From the IMG/VR virus record IMGVR_UViG_3300003364_000021, positions 60,839-80,838 of that record: a stretch of DNA of 20,000 nucleotides. One strand, written 5' to 3'. Position numbers and translations under genes: made by a program. Origin of the DNA: an uncultured virus (IMG/VR IMGVR_UViG_3300003364_000021) (lineage: Duplodnaviria > Heunggongvirae > Uroviricota > Caudoviricetes). The first letter of the stretch is position 1, and each line of letters begins with the position of its first letter. This document shows positions 2,201 through 16,407 of the stretch, piece by piece. The notes below the pieces were generated by a model. The model searched no databases. It worked only from the letters and a program-made list of their open reading frames with translations, and was not told the DNA's origin.

Positions 2201-2394
2201 TGGCCTATCGATGGAAAAGACCGGACGGCAAAACCGGCAGCTGGGTTTCGACGGAGGATGCCGCAATTCAGGACGCGGTGCAGAAGAAAAGCTCAGGTCC
2301 GGGCCTCAAGGTTACGTTCGACCTTACCATTGCTCGGCTGCTCTTCAAATCGCTCGCCCGCAACGGTTGGAGTATAGAGGAGGGTAACCCGTGA
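2200..2394 (+). CDS. Hypothetical protein (64 aa)
   Basis: MAYRWKRPDGKTGSW.... GGAGG upstream, TGATG coupling, and the stop overlaps the terL GTG. Confidence 0.6.
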   Translation: MAYRWKRPDGKTGSWVSTEDAAIQDAVQKKSSGPGLKVTFDLTIARLLFKSLARNGWSIEEGNP

Positions 2395-4040
2395 CAGCCC
2401 CCGTCCTCACCCGCGACCCGGACGCGCTCCCCGAGGAGTTGCCGCGCGGCTCGGAAATCCCCGAGAGCCTCGATCCGCTGGCCGACGGCATCCTGATGGC
2501 GCATCAACGCTCCTGGTTGGCCGACGAGAGCGACCTCAAGGTTTGCGAGAAGGGCCGCCGCACCGGCATCACCTTTGCCGAGATGCTGGGCTGTGCGCTC
2601 ATTGCCGCCGCCGCGCGCGGCGCGGGCGGGCAGAACTGCTTTTACATCGGCGACACCAAGGACAAGGGCCGCGAGGCCATTGGCTATGTGGCGCATTTCG
2701 CGCGGGTGATTGCCGGGGCGGCCCACCCCATCGAGGAGTTTCTCTTCGAGGATCAACAGCCCGATGGCACCACCAAGTTCATCAACGCCTACCGGGTGCG
2801 CTTTGCCTCCGGGTTCCGGGTTGAGGCGCTGAGTTCCAACCCGGCCAACATCCGGGGTCTTCAGGGCACCGTGGTGATCGACGAGGCGGCCTTCCACAAG
2901 GATGTGCGCGAGGTGATCGACGCCGTCAACGCGATGCTGATCTGGGGCGGCAAGGTCCGGATCATCTCGACCCACAACGGCTATCTTAACGCCTTCAACG
3001 AACTGATCCGCGAAGCGCGCTCCGGCAAGAACGGCTTCAAGGTGCATCGCTACACCTTCGGCGATGCCGTCACCAACGGGCTTTATAAGCGCGTCTGCAT
3101 GATGCAGGGCAAGGTCTGGGGTGCCGCGGCCGAAGCGGACTGGGAGAGCACCATCCGCCGCTCCTACGGCGCGCGCGAGGCCGCCATGCGTCAGGAGCTC
3201 GATGCGGAGCCCGCCGAGATGCAGGGCGCGGCCCTCACCCGCGTGCAGATCGAGGCTTGCATGGCGCAGGGCATCCCGTTCCATCGCTGGACGCAGCCCG
3301 ACAGCTTCAAAAACGCCGATGAGGCCGTGCGCAAGGCCGCCGCTTTAACATGGTGTAGAACCCACCTTGAACCGGTGCTTGAAACCCTCGATCGCACCCG
3401 GCCGCATTTCATGGGCGAGGACTTTGCGCGCTCGGGCGACGCGACCGACATCATCATCCTCGAACAGGGCGTCGATCTCACCCGGCGCACCAAGCTCATC
3501 GTCGAGCTGCGCAATATCCCCTTTGACCAGCAGCGCGACGTGCTCTTCTGGCTGCTCGACCGCCTGCCCAACTTCCAAAAAGGGGCGATGGACCGCACCG
3601 GCAATGGCGCCTACCTCGCCGAGGTCGCAGCCCAACGCTATGGGTCGCGCATTGTCGAGGTGGCTTTCACGCGGCAATGGTACGAGCTCGAGATGCCTCC
3701 CTATATCGAGGCCTTCTCGGATCGCACCATCGTGCTGCCCGCCCATGAGGACGTGCTGCGCGATCACCAGGCGCTGCAATACACGGGCGGCATCATCCGC
3801 GTGCCGGAGAACTTTCGCTTCAAAGGCTCGGACGGTCTCGACCGCCACGGCGACAGCGCCATCGCGAGCGCGCTCGCCTGGTACGCCAGCAATCAGGACG
3901 TGGTGCCGATGGAATATCAATCGACCGGGCGGCGCGCCACGTCCGGTGCGGATGACTTCACAGGCACCATGGGTGGCCGACGCATGGGCTTTGCCCGGGG
4001 CGGCGGCGGTTTGGATTTCGGAGGGTTCGGAGATGGCTAG
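2391..4040 (+). CDS. terL: Terminase large subunit (Mu gp28-like)
   Basis: Q motif (LMAHQ), Walker A EKGRRTGIT, Walker B VVIDEAAF, IISTHNG, and nuclease motifs GEDFAR / MDRTGNG / HGDSAIA. Strong SD GAGGAGG. Confidence 0.95.
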   Translation: MTAPVLTRDPDALPEELPRGSEIPESLDPLADGILMAHQRSWLADESDLKVCEKGRRTGITFAEMLGCALIAAAARGAGGQNCFYIGDTKDKGREAIGYVAHFARVIAGAAHPIEEFLFEDQQPDGTTKFINAYRVRFASGFRVEALSSNPANIRGLQGTVVIDEAAFHKDVREVIDAVNAMLIWGGKVRIISTHNGYLNAFNELIREARSGKNGFKVHRYTFGDAVTNGLYKRVCMMQGKVWGAAAEADWESTIRRSYGAREAAMRQELDAEPAEMQGAALTRVQIEACMAQGIPFHRWTQPDSFKNADEAVRKAAALTWCRTHLEPVLETLDRTRPHFMGEDFARSGDATDIIILEQGVDLTRRTKLIVELRNIPFDQQRDVLFWLLDRLPNFQKGAMDRTGNGAYLAEVAAQRYGSRIVEVAFTRQWYELEMPPYIEAFSDRTIVLPAHEDVLRDHQALQYTGGIIRVPENFRFKGSDGLDRHGDSAIASALAWYASNQDVVPMEYQSTGRRATSGADDFTGTMGGRRMGFARGGGGLDFGGFGDG

Positions 4041-5586
4041 GAAGACCAGCACGATGCGACTGCGGTCAGTGCGGATGCGCAACCCGATGGAGCTTTCGGG
4101 CATCCAGAACGGTCGTGACATCACCCGGCCGTGGATCGGCCCGCTGCTCGAGCCGACCGATCCGATCCTGCGCACGCGCGGCGGCGGCAGCTTTGATATC
4201 TACAAACCGATCCTGACCGATCCGCAGGTCAAATCGGTGATGACGCAGCGCATCTCGGCCGTGACCAGCCGGGAATGGGAAGTGGTGCCGGGCGAGGACA
4301 CGGTGGCAGGCAAACGCGCGGCCGACTGGCTGCGGGACGAGCTTTCGGCCATGAAGTTCGACCGCCTGACCGAGAAGATGCTCTGGGGGCTCTTCTATGG
4401 GTATTCCGTCGCCGAGCAGATGTATCGGCGCGACGGGCAAATCTGGGGCTGGGAGGAGATCCGCGTGCGCGACCGTGTCAGGTTTCGCTTTGACGAGGAC
4501 TGCGGCTTGCGCCTGCTGACCATGTCGAACATGCTTATGGGCGAGGAGATGCCGCCCGAGAAGTTCTGGGTCTTCTCGACCGGGGCGGATCACGACGACG
4601 AGCCCTATGGCCTCGGCCTCGCGCATTGGCTCTATTGGCCGGTCTGGTTCAAACGCAACGGCCTCAAGCTCTGGCTGATCGCCCTCGACAAGTTCGGCAT
4701 GCCGACCGGACGGGGCAAGTATCCGGCGCAAGCCACAGAAGAGGAGAAGAAGACGCTGCTCGAGGCCGTAATGGCAATCCGCTCCGAGGCGGGGATCATC
4801 ATTCCCGAAGGCATGGATATCGATCTGCTGTCGGCACCGTCAGGGTCCAGTTCACTCGATTACCAGAAGCTGCACGACGCGATGGACGCCGCCATCTCGA
4901 AGATCGTTCTGTCGCAAACCATGACGACGGACGACGGCTCCAGCCGCTCTCAGGCCGAGGTGCATGACGGCGTCGGTGATGCCGTTAAGAAGTCCGATGC
5001 GGATCTGGTCTGTCAATCCTTCAACGAGGGACCGGTGGCGCAGCTCTCCGCGTTCAACTTCCCGGGCGTTGTGCCCCCAAAGGTGTGGCGCAAGATGGAG
5101 GACCCGGAAGACACCACCGCCGCCGTGGACCGCGACGAGAAGCTGCATCGCATGGGCTGGCGCATGTCCGAGGACCGCGTACAGGAGACCTATGGCGATG
5201 GGTATGAGCGTGCCGCACCTCCGGACACCCCCCCGCCGGGTGAGGAGGCCGCACCGGAGGCCGGTTTCGCCGAGCATCGCCACGATAGCGCACTCGATGC
5301 GCTTGCGGCCGAGATTATCGCCGAGGGACATGCCGAGGCGGCCGTCGAGCCGCTATTCGCAGATATCGCGTCCCTTCTGGGCAGCATCGCACCGGGCACC
5401 ACGCTTGAGGCGCTGCGCGCCCGTATCGACGCCTTGGCGGCCGCACCGAGCGACGGACAAGCGATGACTGACCTCTTGACTGAGGCCAGTTTCGCCGCGC
5501 GTCTGGCGGGTGAGCTGGGGGCCGTGGTGGATGACAGCGAGGCGGCGGACGGGTCGGACACCCTGCCCGGCTCCGTGGCCCCATGA
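4033..5586 (+). CDS. Portal protein (Mu gp29 / DUF935)
   Basis: GYSVAE, PYGLGL..LYWPV.FK, DKFGMP..GKY, IIPEGMDI, ISKIVLSQTMTT..GSSRSQAEVH. GGAG precedes ATG 4033, and the gene follows terL. Confidence 0.93.
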   Translation: MARKTSTMRLRSVRMRNPMELSGIQNGRDITRPWIGPLLEPTDPILRTRGGGSFDIYKPILTDPQVKSVMTQRISAVTSREWEVVPGEDTVAGKRAADWLRDELSAMKFDRLTEKMLWGLFYGYSVAEQMYRRDGQIWGWEEIRVRDRVRFRFDEDCGLRLLTMSNMLMGEEMPPEKFWVFSTGADHDDEPYGLGLAHWLYWPVWFKRNGLKLWLIALDKFGMPTGRGKYPAQATEEEKKTLLEAVMAIRSEAGIIIPEGMDIDLLSAPSGSSSLDYQKLHDAMDAAISKIVLSQTMTTDDGSSRSQAEVHDGVGDAVKKSDADLVCQSFNEGPVAQLSAFNFPGVVPPKVWRKMEDPEDTTAAVDRDEKLHRMGWRMSEDRVQETYGDGYERAAPPDTPPPGEEAAPEAGFAEHRHDSALDALAAEIIAEGHAEAAVEPLFADIASLLGSIAPGTTLEALRARIDALAAAPSDGQAMTDLLTEASFAARLAGELGAVVDDSEAADGSDTLPGSVAP

Positions 5587-6914
5587 TCGACCTGCAGCGC
5601 CTGCGCCCCGAGGATGCGCTGTCCTTCTTTCGCTCCAAGGGCCTCGCCCCGCCCGATGCGCGGTTCGATTTCCGCGACGTCTGGCGCAATGAGCACGCGA
5701 GCAATTTCGTTGTCGCCAAGGCGATGCGGACTGACGTGCTCGAGACGATCCGGGGCGCGCTCGACCGTGCGCTGGCCAACGGCGGCACGCTGGGCAGCTT
5801 CATGGATGACCTCGAGCCCGAGTTGAAACGGCTCGGCTGGTGGGGCAGCGGCACGGAGCGCGACCCCCTGACCGGCGAGTTGAAGAACGTCCGGCTTGAC
5901 TCGCCGCGCCGCCTGCGGGTGATCTTCGACGCCAATATGCGCGCGGCCCATGCTGCGGGCAAATGGGCGCGCATTCAGCGCACCAAGGCGGCCTTCCCCT
6001 TCCTGCGCTACGTCCAGATCCAGCGCGACACCAAGCGCGAGGACCACGCGCGCTATCACGACCTGATCCTGCCCGTCGATCACCCGGCATGGCTTCGCAT
6101 CTTTCCCCCCAACGGCTGGCGGTGCGGCTGCACCGTTCAGCAACTCTCGCAGGGCATGCTAGAGCGGCGCGGCCTCAAGGTGACAGAGGATTTCGAGCTG
6201 GAGGAGCGCGGGGTGCTGAACCGTCGCACCGGTGAGATCGAACCCACGGCACTCGGGGTCGATCCCGCGTGGGATGGCAACCCGGGTCAGGCGTGGCTTG
6301 ACCTCGGGGCGCGCCACGCAGGCGTATCGGCCGGGCTTTCCGCCCCGGCGGCGGCGACCGAGCTTGGCTTTGTCATGCGCGCCCGGCTCATGGGCCTGGG
6401 CGATGGGCGGGAGCATCTTGGCGCATTCGATCTGAGGACCGGCGAGGAAATCGACTGGAGCGTGGGCAAGCCGAAGCGCGTCAAACTGACCCCCTCCATA
6501 ATCCAGCGGCTGGAGAGCGGCACGGCCGTCGGCCTCGTGCACAATCACCCCAGTTCCGCGCCGCTCAGCCCGGATGACATGGCGGTTATGTTCCAGCGCC
6601 AAGTTCGATCAATCATCGCCGTTGGTCACGACGGCTCACTCTACCGGGCACAGATGCTGAGACTTAGCCGTGGCGACATGCGCGAGCTTTCGGAGGTGGC
6701 GGCAGAACTCATTGACGAGTTGGCCCCGGCCTTGACCAATACAGAGCGCGACCATGCGGTGCGCCTCGCGGTCCTCGACGTCTTGCAGTCTCAGGGCCTG
6801 ATCTTATATCAAGAGAGCCTTGGCGCGCAGTCGCGAGCAATCCGGCAGCGCATAGAAGAGTCCGCCCGGGGTGTTGCCGCTGCCATTGTCAGGGCCATGA
6901 ACGGAGATCCGTGA
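5583..6914 (+). CDS. MuF (gp30) minor head protein with C-terminal JAB/MPN-like extension
   Basis: MuF core: F.VAK, LGWWG, SPRRL.VIFDANMR.A.AAGKW, H....DLILPVDHP.W....PPNGWRCGC, VDP.WD.NPG. This is followed by about 200 extra residues with E...HNHPS...LSPDD. Confidence 0.88.
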   Translation: MIDLQRLRPEDALSFFRSKGLAPPDARFDFRDVWRNEHASNFVVAKAMRTDVLETIRGALDRALANGGTLGSFMDDLEPELKRLGWWGSGTERDPLTGELKNVRLDSPRRLRVIFDANMRAAHAAGKWARIQRTKAAFPFLRYVQIQRDTKREDHARYHDLILPVDHPAWLRIFPPNGWRCGCTVQQLSQGMLERRGLKVTEDFELEERGVLNRRTGEIEPTALGVDPAWDGNPGQAWLDLGARHAGVSAGLSAPAAATELGFVMRARLMGLGDGREHLGAFDLRTGEEIDWSVGKPKRVKLTPSIIQRLESGTAVGLVHNHPSSAPLSPDDMAVMFQRQVRSIIAVGHDGSLYRAQMLRLSRGDMRELSEVAAELIDELAPALTNTERDHAVRLAVLDVLQSQGLILYQESLGAQSRAIRQRIEESARGVAAAIVRAMNGDP

Positions 6915-7132
6915 TGCGAACGTTGCTGGTTGAGCCGCCCGACGAATGGAGCCGCGAGGCTTATGAGGCCGCATTGCGCGAAGCGGAAGCATTGCCTGAC
7001 GACGATCCGGACAAGGAAGAGCTGGTCGCGGTCCGCCGCGAAGATCTGTTTGGGTATTTCGACCGCCCTAAGAGGACGCCCGAAGAGCGCCGTGCGATCC
7101 TGCGCGCATTCCTTGTCGATCCGGCCTCCTGA
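6914..7132 (+). CDS. Small acidic protein, candidate immunity/partner of the MuF C-terminal domain
   Basis: 72 aa, D/E-rich and probably helical. GGAG at 6903-6906, with ATG 6914 overlapping the MuF stop (GTG 6911 is an alternative start). Confidence 0.6.
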   Translation: MRTLLVEPPDEWSREAYEAALREAEALPDDDPDKEELVAVRREDLFGYFDRPKRTPEERRAILRAFLVDPAS

Positions 7133-7380
7133 GGCGATTTCGGGCAAATTGGCCTTGCGAGCGCACCTGCAACCGAGGCCGCGCCACGGAATACCCCGTC
7201 AGAGCGCCATTAAATACCCATTGAATACCCCCCTCGGCCCTGCGGGCCACCTTCCCCCGCCGTCAGGGGGGAGGCCATTCTGGGGGCCTCTCAGGGCCTC
7301 TTGGCATTCCGGCCTTGCCGGATGCCCGGTTGGGCGGATAGTGTGGCCACAAGGGGACCCTGCCAAAACCTCGCCTCCCC

Positions 7381-7430
7381 TGAAGCCCTTCATCTGATAT
7401 GGCACCCGCGCCCGGCCTAGTGTCGGTCGC
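7381..7430 (+). promoter_or_regulatory. Candidate activator-dependent late promoter (Mu PI-like) giving a leaderless transcript
   Basis: Dyad TGAAG-CC-CTTCA at 7381-7392 and -10-like TAGTGT at 7418-7423, 7 nt before ATG 7431. No SD and no recognisable -35. Confidence 0.55.
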
Positions 7431-8516
7431 ATGACAAAACCGCTTCACATCTTCCGCGCTGGCCGCCACACCGCCCAATCCGGGCAGAGCTTCGAATTTT
7501 CCGAGGCTGAGGTTGAGGGCATCGCCGCTGCCTATGATCCCGCCCTCCACGAGGCCCCCATTGTCGTGGGCCATCCCCGCACCGATGCCCCGGCCTATGG
7601 CTGGGTGAAATCCCTGCGCGCCGAAGGGGCCGAGCTTTTCGCCGAGCCTGACCAGGTCGAGCCTGCCTTCGCCGAGATGGTGCGCGCCGGACGCTTCAAG
7701 CGGATCAGCGCCTCTTTCTATCCCCCCAAGGCCGCCGCTAACCCGACCCCCGGCATCTATTACCTCAAGCATGTGGGCTTTCTGGGTGCTCAGCCCCCCG
7801 CCGTGAAAGGCCTCAAGGCGGCCGAGTTCTCTGAGGACGCCGAGGCCGTGACCCTTGAGATCGCCTTCTCGGAAGAAGACGCGCCTGTCGCCAGTTTCGG
7901 CGATGCCCTGAAAGGCGCGATCTCCGCCGTCCTGTCCTGGGCACGCACGCCCGCAGGCCAGGAGGCACTCCGCGACGCCGCAGGCGCGCCCGAGACCGAG
8001 CCCGCCCCATTCGCCGAAACCCAAGAAGGAGACCCCGATATGTCCGGCACGGACAAGCCAACCCCCGAAGACCGCCAAGCCGCGCTCGATGCGCGCGAGG
8101 CCGAGATTGCCGCCAAGGAGGCGGCCTTCGCCGAAGGTACGCGCGCCGCACGCCGCGCCGAAGACGCGGCCCTCCTCGACGCCCTTGCCAAGGACGGGCG
8201 CATCGCCCCCGGCCTCAAGGATGAGATGGCCGCGTTCATGGAAAACCTCGACGCGACGGACGAGGTGTCTTTTGCCGAAGGCAAGACCGCCAGCCAGCGC
8301 GACTGGTTCCGCGACCTGCTCTCAAAACGGGCCAAGCCGCTGATCGATTTCAGCGAGCGGGCGGGTGGTGACGCCCTGCCACAGGTCAAGGGAGCGGACG
8401 ACATCACCGCAGCGGCCAAGCGGCTGATCAAGGACGCCGAGGCCGAAGGCCGAACGCTGAGCTTTGCGGAGGCGGCCCGGCAGATCGAAGAAACCATGGA
8501 GAGCGACGATGCCTAA
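7431..8516 (+). CDS. Prohead protease/scaffold (Mu gpI-like)
   Basis: IFRAGRH, YDP.LHEAPIVVGHP....PAYGWV, GRFKRISASFY, YLKHVGFLGAQPPAVKGL, followed by an acidic Ala-rich scaffold half. Confidence 0.9.
   Translation: MTKPLHIFRAGRHTAQSGQSFEFSEAEVEGIAAAYDPALHEAPIVVGHPRTDAPAYGWVKSLRAEGAELFAEPDQVEPAFAEMVRAGRFKRISASFYPPKAAANPTPGIYYLKHVGFLGAQPPAVKGLKAAEFSEDAEAVTLEIAFSEEDAPVASFGDALKGAISAVLSWARTPAGQEALRDAAGAPETEPAPFAETQEGDPDMSGTDKPTPEDRQAALDAREAEIAAKEAAFAEGTRAARRAEDAALLDALAKDGRIAPGLKDEMAAFMENLDATDEVSFAEGKTASQRDWFRDLLSKRAKPLIDFSERAGGDALPQVKGADDITAAAKRLIKDAEAEGRTLSFAEAARQIEETMESDDA
8040..8516 (+). CDS. Nested in-frame scaffolding protein (Mu gpZ-like)
   Basis: AAGGAG at 8026-8031 precedes an in-frame ATG at 8040 (MSGTDKPTPE...). 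Mu I/Z uses the same internal-start arrangement. Confidence 0.65.
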   Translation: MSGTDKPTPEDRQAALDAREAEIAAKEAAFAEGTRAARRAEDAALLDALAKDGRIAPGLKDEMAAFMENLDATDEVSFAEGKTASQRDWFRDLLSKRAKPLIDFSERAGGDALPQVKGADDITAAAKRLIKDAEAEGRTLSFAEAARQIEETMESDDA

Positions 8517-8893: not shown

Positions 8894-9853
8894 ATGAGCA
8901 CCCCCACCCCCTTTGTCGTCGATCCGGTCCTGACCGCCATCGCCGTCAATTTCCGCAACCCCGACATCTCGTTCATTGCCGACGAGGTCATGCCGCGCGT
9001 GCCGGTCATGGCTACGGATTTCAAATGGACCTATTTCCCGCCTGAGCAGATGTTCACGGTGCCCGACACGGAAGTCGGCCGCAAAGGTCTGGTCCAACAG
9101 GTTGAGTTCACCGGCGAAGAGCGCACCTCTTCGGTCAAGGACTACGGTCTCGACGACGTGGTGCCGCAGCGCGACATCGATGCCGCCCGCGCCCTGCGCG
9201 CCGCTGGCAATTCGGCTTTCGATCCCGAGGCGCGCGCCGTCGAGGGTCTGGCCCATCTGATCCAGCTCGACCGCGAAAAGCGCGTGGCCGCCATGGTGCA
9301 GGACGCGGCCAACTATGACGCGGACAAAAAAGTGGTGCTCTCGGGCGCGGGCCAGTTCAGCGATCCCACGTCCGATCCCATCGGCGTGATCTCTGCCGCC
9401 CTTGATGCCACCTTCATCATGCGCCCCAACGTGGCCGCGATGGGGCGTAAGGCCTGGACGGCGCTCTCGACCCATCCCGATATCCTGAAGGCCATCAACC
9501 GGACCTCGGGCGACAAGGGCCGCGCCGGCCGCGAGGCGGTGGCGGAGCTTTTCGAACTCTCTCAGATCCTCGTGGGCGACAGCTATATCAACTCGGCCCG
9601 CAAGGGTCAGACGGCTGCCTTCGAGAAGGTCTGGGGCGGCAATATCGCCCTGATCCATCGCAACACTCAGGCCGGTCCGGACGGCACCGCCCCCGCATGG
9701 GGCTGGACGGCGCAGTTCGACGGGCGCGTCTCGGGGCGCTTCTTTGACCCCAAGGTCGGCCTCAAAGGTTCCACCACGCTCCGCGTAGGCGAGCAGGTCC
9801 GCGAAGTCATCGCGGCTCCGGCCACCGGCTATCTGATCGAGGATGCGGCATGA
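8894..9853 (+). CDS. Major capsid protein
   Basis: 319 aa with DPVLTAIA..F.N...IADEVMPRVPV, L.REKRVA, SDPI..I and RPN...MG...W..L..HP. AGGAG SD and expected position. Confidence 0.88.
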   Translation: MSTPTPFVVDPVLTAIAVNFRNPDISFIADEVMPRVPVMATDFKWTYFPPEQMFTVPDTEVGRKGLVQQVEFTGEERTSSVKDYGLDDVVPQRDIDAARALRAAGNSAFDPEARAVEGLAHLIQLDREKRVAAMVQDAANYDADKKVVLSGAGQFSDPTSDPIGVISAALDATFIMRPNVAAMGRKAWTALSTHPDILKAINRTSGDKGRAGREAVAELFELSQILVGDSYINSARKGQTAAFEKVWGGNIALIHRNTQAGPDGTAPAWGWTAQFDGRVSGRFFDPKVGLKGSTTLRVGEQVREVIAAPATGYLIEDAA

Positions 9854-11036: not shown

Positions 11037-11540
11037 ATGGTCACCCTCACAGTCAGCCTCGACAGTCTCGACTTTGACAGCGCCATTGCCAATGGCCTGC
11101 GCCAGTTGTCCGACCTCACCCCTTTGATGCGCCGCATCGGCACCGTTCTGGAAACCTCCGTCTCGGAGCGGTTCGAGAAGGGCGAAGGCCCGGGCGGCAT
11201 CGCGTGGCCCGTCTCGCACCGCGCGCGCGAGTTCGGCGGCAAGACGCTGGTCGACAGTACACGCCTGCGGGACAGCATCGTGACAGAGGCTGACAGCCAG
11301 TCCGCGCGCATCGGCACCAACGTGCCCTACGCCGCCACCCATCAGTTTGGCGCGTTCATCGAGCCGAAGGCCGCGGGCGGTGACGCCACGGCCAAACTCG
11401 CCTTCACCCTGCCCAATGGCCAATTCATCATGGTCGACCAGGTCGAAATTCCAGCCCGGCCCTTTCTGGGCTTTGACGACAAGGACGAGACCGACATCGT
11501 GGACACGGTCGAGACCTATCTCCGCGAGGTATTCGCATGA
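11037..11540 (+). CDS. Phage virion morphogenesis protein (Mu gpG / P2 gpS family)
   Basis: DLTPLM..IG, RF.....P.G..W, L.D..RLR.SI, IGTNVPYAA.HQFG, IPARPFLG. Confidence 0.9.
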   Translation: MVTLTVSLDSLDFDSAIANGLRQLSDLTPLMRRIGTVLETSVSERFEKGEGPGGIAWPVSHRAREFGGKTLVDSTRLRDSIVTEADSQSARIGTNVPYAATHQFGAFIEPKAAGGDATAKLAFTLPNGQFIMVDQVEIPARPFLGFDDKDETDIVDTVETYLREVFA

Positions 11541-13755: not shown

Positions 13756-16407
13756 ATGGCATTCCGTGTCCAGGGCGAGATCCTCATGGACGCCGATCAG
13801 GCGAAGGCGGAGTTGCAGGCCACCGGCACCGCCGCGAAATCGGCCTCCCAGGACATTCGCGGCGTCGGCACCCAAGGTGCAACCGCCGCACGCGGGGTCA
13901 AGCAGCTTGAGACGGCCGCCAGAACCTCCGCTACGGGCCTTAGGGCGGCAAGCTCGGCCGCCGAGGTCAATGCAGCGGCGACCCAGAAAATGGCCTCGGC
14001 CAATCGCCTCGCCGCAGGCTCGATGGGCAACCTCGTGGCGCAGGGCAATGACGTGTTTGTCATGCTCGCGGCGGGTCAGAACCCGCTCACGCTGGCCATT
14101 CAGCAGGGCACGCAAATCACTCAGGTGATCGGGCCGCTCGGGGCGGCGGGCGCGTTCCGGGCATTGGGCGGGGCGGTTCTCGCGATGCTGAGCCCGATCA
14201 ATCTGATCACCATCGGCGCACTGGCGGCGACCGCTACCGTGGTCAATTGGTTCATGTCCTCCTCGGAAGAGGCCGAGAGTTTCGCGGACAGCGTCGAGGC
14301 GCTCGAGAACCGGATCGACAGCCTGAGGGACAAGATCGCCGAGGCCTCATCCACCCGGCTCGAACTGGCCGACCGCTTCGGCGAAGGCTTTGTGGACCGC
14401 GCCCAAGACCTGCTCGACCGGATCGTCGAGGCCGAGAAGCGTATCACCGCCCGTGAGACCGGCGAAAACATCGGAGATTTTCTGGGCGAAACCGGCGTGG
14501 ACTTTGGGCGCATCAACCGCAACCGCAACCTCCTGCCGCAATCGGTCGACGGCGGGCTCGACGTGGCCGAGGGTCAAGCGCTCTCCACGCTCGCTTCTGA
14601 GTTCGACCTCAGCGGTCTCTTTGGGCGGATGCGTGCCGGGAGCCGTGAACTTGTTCAAGACGTTCTCAACGATTTCGCCGCCCTTCAGGAGGCCGCGCAA
14701 GGCACGGTCGAAGAACAAGCCGCCGCCGTCGACGCGCTGATCGAGAGCTACACCCGCGCCGCGCTGGCCTCGGGGGAGACGTCCGAGGCAGAGCAAGACC
14801 GCCTCCTGACGCTTGACAAAATGCGTCTGACCCTGGCCGAAGTTGCCAAGCTGCAAGGGGAAGACCCCGCCCGAAACCGCCAGACCGAAGAAATGCTGAC
14901 CTTCCTCGATCTGGTGACCAAAAGCACCGGCGAGCAGCTGAAGGCCGAGGCGGCGGCGCAGGCCACGCTCTCGACCATGATCCAGCAGAATGGCGTGGCC
15001 GAGGCTATCGCGCGGGCAGGCGCGGACAGTGCCGAGGTGACGCGGTTGCGCGCGCAGTTCGCCCTCGATGCGGCGCTTGCGGAGGCCGACGCCTCTGGCG
15101 CGAGCGAAGAAACAAAAGAGGCCATGCGCGAGGCCGCACAACACACCTTTGAAATCGCGACGAGCGACATGTCCGGCAGCATCCGCGCGGCCGCCGACGA
15201 GGCCGCGCGGCTCTCGGCCGAGGTGCGCGGTGCCGTCGATGCCATGTTCGACCTGCAATCCCAAGGCCAGGTCGGGTTGGAGAACGCCCGTATCCGGGCG
15301 GAGTTTCGCGACGATCCGATTGGGCGCGCCGGAGCCTTGGCCGGTGCTAGGTTCGACCGCGAGACGGCGGTAATCCGGGGCGAGGCCAGCGGCGATACGG
15401 CAACAGTCGATGACCTAAATGCGCGCCGGGACGCCGTTGTCGAACTGGCCCGTGAGACATCCCGCCTCAACGAGCTAGCCCGGCCGACGCGGTCCGGCAG
15501 CGGCGCGCGTGGCGCATCGGCCAACGAGACCCTGCGCGAACAGCAGGCGCTCGACCGGCTGATCGAGAGCAAGCGGCGCGAGATCGAGGCGCTGCGCGAG
15601 AGCGACCCGGTGCAGCGCGAGATGATCCGCCTGCGCGACCGCCTGACCGCCGCGACGCCAAAGCAACGCGCGGAGATCGAGGCGCTCGTCGAGGCCCATG
15701 AGAACGAGCGCGTCGCCATGGAGCGCAAGGAGGAATTCAACAACGCCGTCGACGACGTGCTGCTCGAGGCCGAAAGCCTCCGGGACGTCTGGGAGGGGAT
15801 CGGCGACATGGTCATCCGCGCGGCCAAGGAAGCGCTGATCCTCGGCACCGGCCCGCTCTCCGGTCTCTTTGGGGGCAGCGGTGGCGGTGGTGGCGGCCTT
15901 GGCGATCTCTTTGGTCTCCTCTCGGGCGGGTCGCTGATCAATATTGCGTCTGGCGGCTTGCCCGGCGAGATGGCGCCCGGCTTTGCCAGTGGCGGCGATC
16001 CTCTTGTCACCCGTCCCGGCCTCCTCTTGGGCGCGGGCACAGGCCGGGGGGACAGGATCCGCGCGATGGTAAGCGCCGGGGAATTCATCATGACGGCCGA
16101 GGCCACGGCCCGCAACCGCGCGGTGCTCGAGGCCATGAACGCAGGCGCGATCATTCCAGGCTTTGCCGGGGGCGGCCTGCCCCTGCCCGCGCAGGCTGCC
16201 GGTGCGACGCGAGCCCAGAGCGGTAGCGCGGGCCCGCGCATCGAGGTCGTGGCCCGCGTCGAGAACGGCAGCATCGTCCAGGACGTGCGCCGCATATCGG
16301 GGGAAGTGGCCGTGCAGGTGACGCGGGCCGGGATTGAGCAATTCACGCGCAGCGGCCTGCCGCAGGCGGTTGATCGTATCAACAAAGACCCCCGGAGGCG
16401 CGGTTGA
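13756..16407 (+). CDS. Tail tape measure protein
   Basis: 883 aa, Ala-rich and helical. Lambda-type N-terminal motif Q.NDV.V.LA.GQNPL..AIQQG.QI, and C-terminal FASGG...G.GTGR.D.I.AM.S.GEFI..A.AT. Confidence 0.92.
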   Translation: MAFRVQGEILMDADQAKAELQATGTAAKSASQDIRGVGTQGATAARGVKQLETAARTSATGLRAASSAAEVNAAATQKMASANRLAAGSMGNLVAQGNDVFVMLAAGQNPLTLAIQQGTQITQVIGPLGAAGAFRALGGAVLAMLSPINLITIGALAATATVVNWFMSSSEEAESFADSVEALENRIDSLRDKIAEASSTRLELADRFGEGFVDRAQDLLDRIVEAEKRITARETGENIGDFLGETGVDFGRINRNRNLLPQSVDGGLDVAEGQALSTLASEFDLSGLFGRMRAGSRELVQDVLNDFAALQEAAQGTVEEQAAAVDALIESYTRAALASGETSEAEQDRLLTLDKMRLTLAEVAKLQGEDPARNRQTEEMLTFLDLVTKSTGEQLKAEAAAQATLSTMIQQNGVAEAIARAGADSAEVTRLRAQFALDAALAEADASGASEETKEAMREAAQHTFEIATSDMSGSIRAAADEAARLSAEVRGAVDAMFDLQSQGQVGLENARIRAEFRDDPIGRAGALAGARFDRETAVIRGEASGDTATVDDLNARRDAVVELARETSRLNELARPTRSGSGARGASANETLREQQALDRLIESKRREIEALRESDPVQREMIRLRDRLTAATPKQRAEIEALVEAHENERVAMERKEEFNNAVDDVLLEAESLRDVWEGIGDMVIRAAKEALILGTGPLSGLFGGSGGGGGGLGDLFGLLSGGSLINIASGGLPGEMAPGFASGGDPLVTRPGLLLGAGTGRGDRIRAMVSAGEFIMTAEATARNRAVLEAMNAGAIIPGFAGGGLPLPAQAAGATRAQSGSAGPRIEVVARVENGSIVQDVRRISGEVAVQVTRAGIEQFTRSGLPQAVDRINKDPRRRG

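What the first reader, a model, noticed from the sequence alone, without database searches (positions are those of the whole stretch)
6290..6914. MuF head protein carries a C-terminal JAB/MPN metallo-isopeptidase-like domain
Seen: after the MuF core ends (WDGNPG, about 6287) there is a ~200-aa extension. It has Glu at 6411 (REHLGAFD) and HNHPSSAPLSPDD from 6540, matching the JAMM signature E-x(n)-HxH-x7-S-x2-D with a slightly shorter spacing. Known: long MuF proteins carry variable C-terminal toxin domains, and JAB peptidases (Cap3, BilC) process or remove ubiquitin-like conjugates in antiphage systems. Inference: this could be a virion-delivered deconjugase that reverses CD-NTase or Ubl conjugation, or alternatively a RadC-like or polymorphic toxin.
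Basis: partly seen in the sequence, partly recalled or inferred. Interest (0 to 1): 0.8.

Follow-up and report, generated by a model that had tools for sequence, protein, structure and literature searches.

The report
Phage head protein carrying JAB enzyme
A Mu-like phage's minor head protein ends in a zinc-hydrolase domain of the JAB/RadC type that probably rides into the next host with the DNA, and the tiny gene right behind it is predicted to plug the enzyme's active site.

Summary
ORF 5583-6914 (443 aa) is a MuF minor head protein whose last ~200 residues fold, with high confidence, as a JAB/MPN domain. Glu277, His320-Asn-His322-Pro, Ser329 and Asp332 sit on the expected strands and helix and are almost invariant in the relatives examined.

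No Pfam or NCBIfam model covers the domain. Its only sequence link to a solved JAB protein is weak and is to RadC, not to Cap3, BilC or Rpn11.

Relatives are common: 406 representative clusters at E <= 0.001. They are mostly fused to MuF, minor-capsid-protein-2 or portal proteins, or embedded in giant "polyvalent" phage proteins.

MuF-RadC fusions are already listed as putative MuF toxins (Jamet 2017), and RadC domains are described in polyvalent proteins (Iyer 2017). The kind is therefore known. This clade is a divergent, unmodelled variant.

What is new is the partner. A translationally coupled 72-aa gene (6914-7132) is conserved behind the fusion. It is predicted to bind the catalytic cleft through its N-terminal strand (score 0.89, best control 0.00).

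Best reading: a virion-delivered hydrolase effector with a cognate inhibitor or immunity protein. The Ubl or CD-NTase deconjugase idea is not supported. The substrate is unknown.

The parts
5583..6914 (+). Gene for the 443-aa MuF-JAB fusion protein. Its ATG overlaps the stop codon of the portal gene.
   Evidence: ORF list and translation. 26 homologues of 393-445 aa carry the same architecture, in Roseovarius genomes and metagenomes.
5745..6137 (+). MuF (Phage_Mu_F) core, residues 55-185.
   Evidence: Pfam PF04233, E 4.9e-10, above the cut-off. PHROG 220 extends over residues 3-241.
6291..6911 (+). C-terminal domain, residues 237-443. It has two leading helices, a JAB/MPN core (about residues 254-358) and a helical extension with one added strand (about residues 366-439).
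   Evidence: AF2 model with pLDDT 90.8 and pTM 0.87. Secondary structure in order: H18-37, E41-47, E53-59, H68-75, E80-85, H94-103, E107-111, E117-122, then H130-144, H150-167, E171-176, H179-203.
6411..6413 (+). Glu277, the predicted general base, at the start of strand 1.
   Evidence: Kept in 98 of the 100 family sequences that cover the column. Aligned with the Glu of RadC 2qlc. Lies in the predicted partner interface.
6540..6578 (+). H320-N-H322-P-S-S-A-P-L-S329-P-D-D332: the predicted zinc ligands (His, His, Asp) and the oxyanion Ser.
   Evidence: Near-invariant. [quoted passage not shown]
6624..6638 (+). G348-H349-D350-G351-S352, a motif specific to this family, in the strand 4-strand 5 hairpin.
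   Evidence: Of 147 sequences: G 134, H 125, D 109 (N 22), G 136, S 117. Its role is unknown.
6914..7132 (+). Translationally coupled small gene of 72 aa from the ATG, which overlaps the TGA stop as TGATG. A GTG lies at 6911. The product is acidic and is the predicted cleft-binding partner (inhibitor or immunity candidate).
   Evidence: Sequence. Conserved in all 9 related loci examined (alignment A4). A positional counterpart of 60 aa exists in Pelagibaca phage vB_PeaS-P1. Complex prediction.
4051..5586 (+). Context: Mu gp29-type portal gene immediately upstream.
   Evidence: PHROG 113, E 5.3e-118.
7431..8516 (+). Context: Mu gpI-type head maturation protease, so the JAB domain is not the capsid protease.
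   Evidence: PHROG 976, E 2.6e-91.

Best explanation
The gene encodes the minor head / DNA-pilot protein (MuF) of a Mu-like siphophage of Roseovarius. Its usual C-terminal domain has been replaced by a zinc-hydrolase domain of the JAB/MPN superfamily. This domain belongs to a divergent, RadC-related clade that no Pfam model covers.

Shown here: the fold; the catalytic Glu, HxH, Ser and Asp on the right structural elements; their conservation; and the repeated fusion of this domain to head-internal proteins (MuF, minor capsid protein 2, portal) and to giant polyvalent proteins.

Inferred from what the cited papers say of MuF proteins: the MuF part places a few copies in the capsid at the portal, so the enzyme enters the next cell together with the DNA and acts there as an early effector.

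Predicted, not shown: the 72-aa product of the overlapping downstream gene lays its N-terminal strand (M-R-T-L-L-V-E-P-P) into the catalytic cleft. It would keep the enzyme silent in the cell that produces the phage, as an immunity or inhibitor protein does.

My commitment on chemistry: a metallo-(iso)peptidase that cuts a cytoplasmic host protein (about 50%). The alternative is the nuclease or nucleotide-processing activity proposed for RadC (about 25%). The substrate is unknown.
For: Fold:
- AF2 model pLDDT 90.8.
- Best Foldseek PDB hits are all JAMM/MPN proteins, E about 3e-3 with probabilities up to 1.00.

Clade:
- Family profile A3 against PDB sequences gives only RadC 2qlc (E 1.1e-3), aligned over the Glu, HNHPS and S..D.
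- hhalign of the family against four Roseovarius RadC proteins gives probability 94.7% over 47 columns.
- Pfam RadC passes its whole-protein cut-off only in three multi-copy relatives: P0073 at 28.1 bits, P0103 at 24.6 and P0109 at 23.5, against 22.1.

Spread:
- 406 representative clusters at E <= 0.001.
- MuF is present in 27 of 79 hits and 19 of 46 hits. That is 125 of the 150 listed hits scanned; the 25 left out are all 250 aa or shorter.
- Portal fusions are P0069 and P0133. Polyvalent-protein domains (ddrB-ParB, LPD38/39, InPase) occur in six giants.
- A motif scan of viral contigs gave 70 of 80 loci with the domain, in 42 clusters: 16 MuF, 9 Phage_min_cap2, 10 giants (7 with polyvalent-protein domains), 2 weak VG15 and 5 with no Pfam family.
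- The cultured Pelagibaca phage vB_PeaS-P1 has the same gene order.

Partner:
- The small ORF is conserved in 9 of 9 related loci.
- 30 of 37 assessable cluster representatives have an ORF of 40-80 aa starting 30 nt before to 15 nt after the stop codon. That is 29 of 32 non-giant fusions.
- Complex prediction: score 0.89, best of 3 controls 0.00. The mark was reached by 116 of 157 solved complexes and 2 of 215 mismatched pairs. Runs agree in at least 89% of contacts and partner pLDDT is at least 86. The interface includes domain residues 41, 84, 86, 93 and 96 (E277, H320, H322, S329, D332) and partner residues 1-12.

Literature:
- MuF fusions as injected effectors, and RadC in polyvalent proteins (passages read in PMC5512222).
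- MuF-RadC listed as a toxin, 'putative nuclease', and 89.4% of MuF toxin genes followed by a small ORF (passages and Tables S5 and S7 of PMC5576092).
Against: No activity, packaging, toxicity or binding has been measured.

The RadC link is weak (E 1e-3; 47 columns). Pfam RadC does not match the window's own domain.

I could not inspect model coordinates. That the catalytic residues cluster rests on their shared contact with one peptide in the complex model.

The complex used my own shallow alignments (9 and 8 rows), so the calibration counts hold only roughly.

In a leave-one-out test the window-type small ORF is not significantly similar to the 'IDPP-type' small ORFs of other phages (E 0.18 and 1.3). 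The partners may therefore be several unrelated families, and a short ORF after a gene is common in GC-rich DNA.

About 240-aa stand-alone relatives carry signal-peptide-like N-termini, which does not fit a purely cytoplasmic target.

One lineage (P0027) has lost E277 and H320.
Confidence: 0.55

Rival explanations
1. RadC-type nuclease or nucleotide-processing toxin. The domain cuts or processes host nucleic acid (or a nucleotide signal) after injection, as Iyer et al. proposed for RadC and as Jamet et al. list for MuF-RadC toxins. The small gene is its immunity protein.
For: The nearest sequence relative is RadC. RadC-clade JAB domains were predicted to be nucleases from fusions to HhH, primase, ArdC and DinG (passages in PMC3239186 and PMC5512222). 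PF04002 is listed as 'putative nuclease' among MuF toxin domains (Table S7 of PMC5576092). In giant relatives the domain co-occurs with nucleotide and DNA-directed domains (ddrB-ParB, InPase, SNF2).
Against: No JAB domain has been shown to be a nuclease. A 2025 review found only metalloproteases, and no nucleases, as structural neighbours of RadC-like domains, and calls the function open (passages in PMC11981726). The full peptidase catalytic set, including the Ser, is kept. The predicted partner occupies the cleft as an extended peptide.
Confidence: 0.25
2. Counter-defence deconjugase. The injected JAB domain removes ubiquitin-like or CD-NTase conjugates made by CBASS Cap2 or Bil-type systems.
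Confidence: 0.1
3. Processing or maturation peptidase acting in cis or inside the capsid. The domain trims MuF, the small protein or other head proteins, or releases cargo domains from polyvalent proteins, and is not a host-directed effector.
For: Several giant relatives hold 3-4 copies of the domain (P0033, P0035, P0073, P0109). Peptidases of polyvalent proteins were proposed as releasing agents (passage in PMC5512222). The small protein could be a substrate rather than an inhibitor (cannot tell the two apart).
Against: The phage has its own Mu gpI-type head protease. The N-terminal motif of the small ORFs is not enriched in giant relatives: 1 occurrence in 25 giants, no more than in shuffles. 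In the simple two-domain fusion there is no other cargo to release.
Confidence: 0.1

Closest known systems
MuF polymorphic toxins with a C-terminal RadC (PF04002) domain (Jamet et al. 2017, PMC5576092, Tables S5 and S7)
   Same: A MuF N-terminal part, a JAB-type C-terminal domain, a small ORF directly downstream and a (pro)phage packaging-module context.
   Different: The listed examples are from Staphylococcus and Slackia prophages and match Pfam RadC. The domain here does not match Pfam RadC, has one residue less between HxH and Ser, carries a GHDGS motif and has a roughly 80-residue helical extension. I did not test whether the listed examples belong to this clade.
RadC domain of polyvalent proteins (Iyer et al. 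2017, PMC5512222) and bacterial RadC/YicR (solved homologue 2qlc)
   Same: The HNHP motif, the Glu, and the Ser and Asp. It is the closest sequence relative. Relatives occur in giant proteins with LPD, ddrB-ParB, InPase and ART-PolyVal domains.
   Different: There is no HhH domain. Similarity is confined to about 50-60 core residues. I could not see Figure 4H or the FTP supplement of that paper, so I cannot say whether a MuF-RadC architecture of this clade is drawn there.
Cap3 (CBASS) and BilC (Bil) JAB deconjugases
   Different: There is no sequence-level link. The gene lies in a phage head module, not a defence operon. No E1, E2 or Ubl partner is present. Its partner is a helical 72-aa protein.
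Phage Mu gpF and RcapMu gp37 (MuF plus Ct_MAD / PBECR-like C-terminal domain)
   Same: The same length class (439-493 aa), the same MuF core and the same place after the portal gene.
   Different: Their C-terminal domains have no HxH and do not match the family profiles (E 0.029 to 0.56). In them gene G (Neck1) follows, not a 60-73-aa ORF. The C-terminal domain has therefore been swapped.

Membership tests
JAB/MPN+ (JAMM) superfamily | Deaminase-like alpha/beta fold: helix, strand 1-2 hairpin, helix, strand 3, helix, strand 4-5 hairpin. | tested here: met
JAB/MPN+ (JAMM) superfamily | [quoted passage not shown] | tested here: met
   E277, H320/H322, S329 and D332 are on these elements and near-invariant. 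The spacing is HxH-x6-S-x2-D, against x7 in the RadC proteins read here.
JAB/MPN+ (JAMM) superfamily | Bound zinc and hydrolase activity. | not testable with these tools
   Needs metal analysis and enzyme assays.
RadC family (Pfam PF04002) | A match to the Pfam RadC model above its gathering score. | tested here: not met
   No RadC hit at E <= 1 for the protein or its C-terminal part. No hit in 42 viral relatives at E <= 1e-4. Only three multi-copy relatives pass on summed score.
RadC family (Pfam PF04002) | Profile-level kinship with RadC and a shared HNHP signature. | tested here: met
   hhalign probability 94.7% over 47 columns. PDB search reaches 2qlc at E 1.1e-3 as the only JAB hit. HNHP is present in the Roseovarius RadC proteins. 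The link is weak, so I treat the clade as a sister group and not as a member.
MuF / SPP1 gp7 minor head proteins | A Phage_Mu_F domain above its cut-off, with the gene placed directly after the portal gene in a head module. | tested here: met
MuF polymorphic toxin systems (Jamet 2017) | A MuF protein with a C-terminal extension that carries a toxin-type domain. | tested here: inconclusive
   The extension and a JAB-type domain are present, and RadC is on that paper's toxin list. Toxicity of this clade is untested.
MuF polymorphic toxin systems (Jamet 2017) | A small ORF (<150 aa) immediately downstream as immunity candidate. | tested here: met
   A 72-aa ORF overlaps the stop codon. It is conserved and predicted to bind the catalytic cleft.
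Cap3 / BilC-type Ubl deconjugases | Sequence kinship with Cap3 or BilC, or an operon with E1/E2, CD-NTase or Ubl genes. | tested here: inconclusive
   Only fold-level likeness was found. There is no sequence hit at E <= 10. The neighbouring genes are head and tail genes.
Polyvalent proteins (Iyer 2017) | Two or more effector or anchor domains in one polypeptide, encoded with virion packaging genes. | tested here: met
   A two-domain MuF-JAB protein lies between the portal and protease genes. Giant relatives carry LPD, ddrB-ParB, InPase and ART-PolyVal domains.

The most novel reading that the evidence does not exclude
The fusion and the small gene form a conserved two-gene module found across very different phages. 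It would be a virion-delivered peptidase of the RadC-related JAB clade plus a pseudo-substrate inhibitor. The inhibitor's N-terminal hydrophobic-acid-Pro-Pro strand would fill the catalytic cleft. If true, this would be the first concrete biochemical handle on the long-unexplained RadC branch of JAB domains (peptide-binding, not nuclease). It would also define a new class of injected phage effector with its own antidote.
Probability: 0.3. Interest if true: 0.75.

Novelty: new variant of a known kind. Interest (0 to 1): 0.5.

Why it matters
RadC-type JAB domains are among the most widespread bacterial and phage domains still without a known reaction.

This clade is large, invisible to Pfam, and almost always tied to proteins that travel inside the phage head. 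That gives a clear biological setting: an enzyme delivered with the DNA.

The predicted cleft-binding partner offers a simple experimental pair (toxin and antidote, or enzyme and inhibitor) with which to find the substrate.

For annotation, hundreds of 'minor capsid' or 'head morphogenesis' proteins could be relabelled as carrying a JAB-type hydrolase.

Tried and rejected
- Single-sequence and narrow-profile (A2) searches of PDB sequences gave no JAB hit. Only the broader profile A3 reached RadC.
- Foldseek against the PDB gave no match at E <= 0.001.
- The genome search by family kinship was not possible for a virus record.
- The search for related loci with alignment A3 failed for lack of a conserved stretch. 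With the stand-alone relatives P0047 and P0062 it found nothing in viral contigs, so the genomic context of stand-alone and secreted-looking forms is unknown.
- Cluster look-up gave almost no names.
- Is the domain the 'Ct_MAD' domain of Jamet 2017? Rejected. Mu gpF and RcapMu gp37, both labelled Ct_MAD in that paper's Table S4, have no HxH and do not match the family profiles.
- Are all small downstream ORFs one family? Not shown. Iteration from the window type stayed within close relatives (21 hits). In the leave-one-out test, 9 of 12 'IDPP-type' members were recovered at E <= 0.0063 and 8 of 8 'PDY-type' members at E <= 0.012. The window type was not recovered (E 0.18 and 1.3).
- Is the small-ORF N-terminal motif a processing site repeated in giant relatives? 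No enrichment was found.
- P0051 and P0056 in the profile search are chance hits of beta-propeller repeats to the AVGHDGS stretch.
- Earlier notes of this scan held nothing for this place or sequence.

Full report
**1. What is there.**
The window is the structural module of a Mu-like siphophage. It holds:
- small terminase, 445-1110
- large terminase, 2391-4037
- Mu gp29-type portal, 4051-5586
- the gene in question, 5583-6914
- a small ORF, 6911/6914-7132
- gpI-type protease, 7431-8516
- scaffold
- major head protein, 8894-9853
- connector proteins
- tape measure, 13756-16407
- tail fibre

The window is the last 20 kb of an 80.8-kb virus record. The ORF has 443 residues. Pfam finds Phage_Mu_F at residues 55-185. 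PHROG 220, 'minor head protein and DNA pilot', covers residues 3-241.

**2. The C-terminal domain is a JAB/MPN fold with an intact catalytic set.**
Residues 237-443 have no Pfam or NCBIfam match.

An AF2 model built on ten homologues is confident (pLDDT 90.8, pTM 0.87). Its elements follow the JAB plan as described in PMC3239186 (passages read). E277 opens strand 1. H320-x-H322 ends strand 3. S329 and D332 open the next helix. Strands 4 and 5 form a hairpin. About 80 further residues follow as helices plus one strand.

- Foldseek against the PDB gives only JAMM/MPN proteins at the top: AMSH, Sst2, PfJAMM1, Rpn11, CSN5, RadC 2qlc and BubCD. E-values are only about 3e-3.
- In the viral structure library the best matches are phage 'minor capsid proteins' and unnamed phage proteins (E down to 2.5e-11, TM 0.70). 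RadC and MPN proteins come further down.

**3. Conservation.**
In 20 full-length homologues, N321, H322, P323, S325, P327 and D332 are invariant. Only P0027 has lost E277 (Ala) and H320 (Gln).

A profile search of 1.84 billion representatives found 406 proteins at E <= 0.001. In the 149 domain sequences taken from the listed hits, the Glu, HNHP, Ser and Asp are each kept in about 97-100% of the sequences that cover the column. A further motif, A-x-G-H-D-G-S (residues 346-352), is also conserved.

Caveat: these hits were chosen by a profile that contains these motifs.

**4. Which JAB clade.**
- A 35-member profile (A3) searched against all PDB sequences reaches one JAB protein only, the RadC homologue 2qlc (E 1.1e-3). 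It is aligned from the Glu through HNHPS to S..D. No Cap3, BilC, Rpn11, AMSH or CSN5 chain appears at E <= 10.
- hhalign against four RadC proteins taken from Roseovarius genomes gives probability 94.7% over 47 columns.
- Pfam RadC passes its cut-off only on summed score, in three relatives that hold several copies.
- The protein atlas lists only unnamed clusters as nearest. The nearest named ones are Phage_min_cap2, Prok-JAB, RadC and DUF4329, all below 0.9 and therefore leads only.

I conclude that this is a RadC-related but separate clade. It is one residue shorter between HxH and Ser than RadC, and it has its own GHDGS motif and helical extension.

**5. Where the domain occurs.**
Of the 125 listed hits scanned with Pfam, 46 carry MuF: 27 of 79 and 19 of 46. 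The 25 not scanned are all 250 aa or shorter. Other architectures among the hits:
- Two are portal fusions (P0069, P0133).
- Two carry Phage_min_cap2.
- Six giants carry polyvalent-protein domains (ddrB-ParB, LPD38, LPD39, InPase).
- Some giants hold three or four copies of the domain.

It required one His codon and the GHDG motif. It gave 80 loci with DNA, 70 of them with the domain, in 42 clusters. Pfam sorts the clusters as follows:
- 16 MuF fusions
- 9 Phage_min_cap2 fusions
- 2 weak VG15 matches
- 5 of 567-601 aa with no family
- 10 giants, 7 of them with polyvalent-protein domains

The cultured Pelagibaca phage vB_PeaS-P1 has the same portal / MuF-JAB / small ORF / protease order. It is 28.7% identical in the domain, and its motif reads HSHL...S..D.

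Mu gpF and RcapMu gp37 have the same size and position but an unrelated C-terminal domain, followed by gene G. The C-terminal domain has therefore been exchanged.

**6. What is already in print.**
- Iyer et al. 2017 (PMC5512222, passages read) describe MuF as a head protein fused to effector domains that are probably injected. They describe RadC as a JAB clade found in polyvalent proteins and predict it to act on nucleic acids.
- Iyer et al. 2011 (PMC3239186, passages read) give the nuclease argument.
- Jamet et al. 2017 (PMC5576092, passages and Table S1 and S3-S5 rows and Table S7 seen through a search of supplement 2) list five MuF proteins with a RadC C-terminal domain as toxins. They list RadC as 'putative nuclease'. 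[quoted passage not shown]
- A 2025 review (PMC11981726, passages read) states that the function of RadC-like domains is still open. It also states that structural neighbours are metalloproteases, not nucleases.

A MuF protein with a JAB-type end is therefore a known kind. I could not see Figure 4H or the FTP tables of PMC5512222, nor the HMM files of PMC5576092.

**7. The small gene.**
The stop codon of the fusion overlaps the start of a 72-aa ORF as TGATG. The ORF is conserved at protein level in all nine related loci examined. Pelagibaca phage has a weak counterpart (E 0.002 pairwise).

Across the viral clusters, 30 of 37 assessable representatives have an ORF of 40-80 aa starting within 30 nt before to 15 nt after the stop. 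That is 29 of 32 non-giant fusions. Many of these begin with a short hydrophobic run, an acidic residue and Pro-Pro or Pro-Asp-Tyr, followed by an aromatic-acidic helix.

Leave-one-out profiles support two families:
- 9 of 12 'IDPP-type' members recovered at E <= 0.0063
- 8 of 8 'PDY-type' members recovered at E <= 0.012

They do not link the window's ORF to these families (E 0.18 and 1.3).

A complex prediction of the domain with the small protein scored 0.89. The best of three controls scored 0.00. The mark was reached by 116 of 157 solved complexes and 2 of 215 mismatched pairs. The runs agree in at least 89% of contacts, and partner pLDDT is at least 86. My own shallow alignments were used, so these counts hold only roughly.

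The confident interface joins partner residues 1-12 to domain residues 61-66. It also joins them to residues 41, 84, 86, 93 and 96, which are E277, H320, H322, S329 and D332. Partner Leu5 touches H320 and D332. This also shows indirectly that the catalytic residues form one patch. The model supports binding; it does not show it.

**8. Reading.**
The best-supported account is a virion-carried hydrolase with a cognate cleft-binding protein. MuF would place the enzyme in the head. The enzyme would enter the next host with the DNA. The small protein would silence it in the producing cell.

I lean towards peptidase chemistry for three reasons. The full JAMM peptidase set is kept. The only known JAB reactions are (iso)peptide hydrolysis. 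The predicted partner lies in the cleft as an extended strand whose Pro residues would resist cleavage. The last point is inference.

The nuclease reading remains open. The deconjugase reading has only fold-level support. A processing role in cis found no support in a motif count over 25 giants.

Points against my reading:
- There are no measurements.
- The clade assignment is weak.
- The alignments behind the complex are shallow.
- Some stand-alone relatives look secreted.
- One lineage has lost two catalytic residues.

**9. Verdict.**
This is a new variant of a known kind. Interest is moderate. It would rise if the enzyme-inhibitor pair is confirmed, because that would open the RadC branch of JAB domains to experiment.

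Noticed in passing
window 7133-7430: A 298-nt stretch with no convincing ORF lies between the small gene and the protease gene. In phage Mu the annotated strong gyrase cut site lies in the equivalent gap between genes G and I. RcapMu has a 268-nt gap and Pelagibaca phage a 176-nt gap at the same place. This may be a central gyrase site. The simple scan found no promoter there.
   Followed up: partly
P0062, P0063, P0067, P0072, P0079, P0083, P0086 (alignment A3): Stand-alone family members of about 240 aa start with signal-peptide-like hydrophobic N-termini. Part of this JAB clade may therefore act outside the cytoplasm. Their genomic context could not be fetched.
   Followed up: partly
P0033 (1931 aa), P0035 (3937 aa), P0073, P0109: Giant phage proteins carry three or four copies of this JAB-like domain in one chain. 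Some also carry ddrB-ParB or MuF.
   Followed up: partly
P0043 (832 aa), P0154 (818 aa): These MuF-JAB fusions have a MuF domain interrupted by an intein (Hint / Intein_splicing matches).
   Followed up: no
P0027 (Roseovarius sp. homologue): This full-length homologue has the catalytic Glu replaced by Ala and the first His by Gln, so it is probably an inactive copy.
   Followed up: no
window 11037-11537: The Mu gene G equivalent (tail completion / Neck1, PHROG 26) lies about 4 kb downstream of the MuF gene. In Mu and RcapMu it lies directly after it.
   Followed up: no
P0051, P0056; PDB 9ifo: The family's AVGHDGSxY stretch resembles the repeat unit of NHL/YD-type beta-propellers. This produces chance multi-stretch hits in profile searches.
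   Followed up: yes
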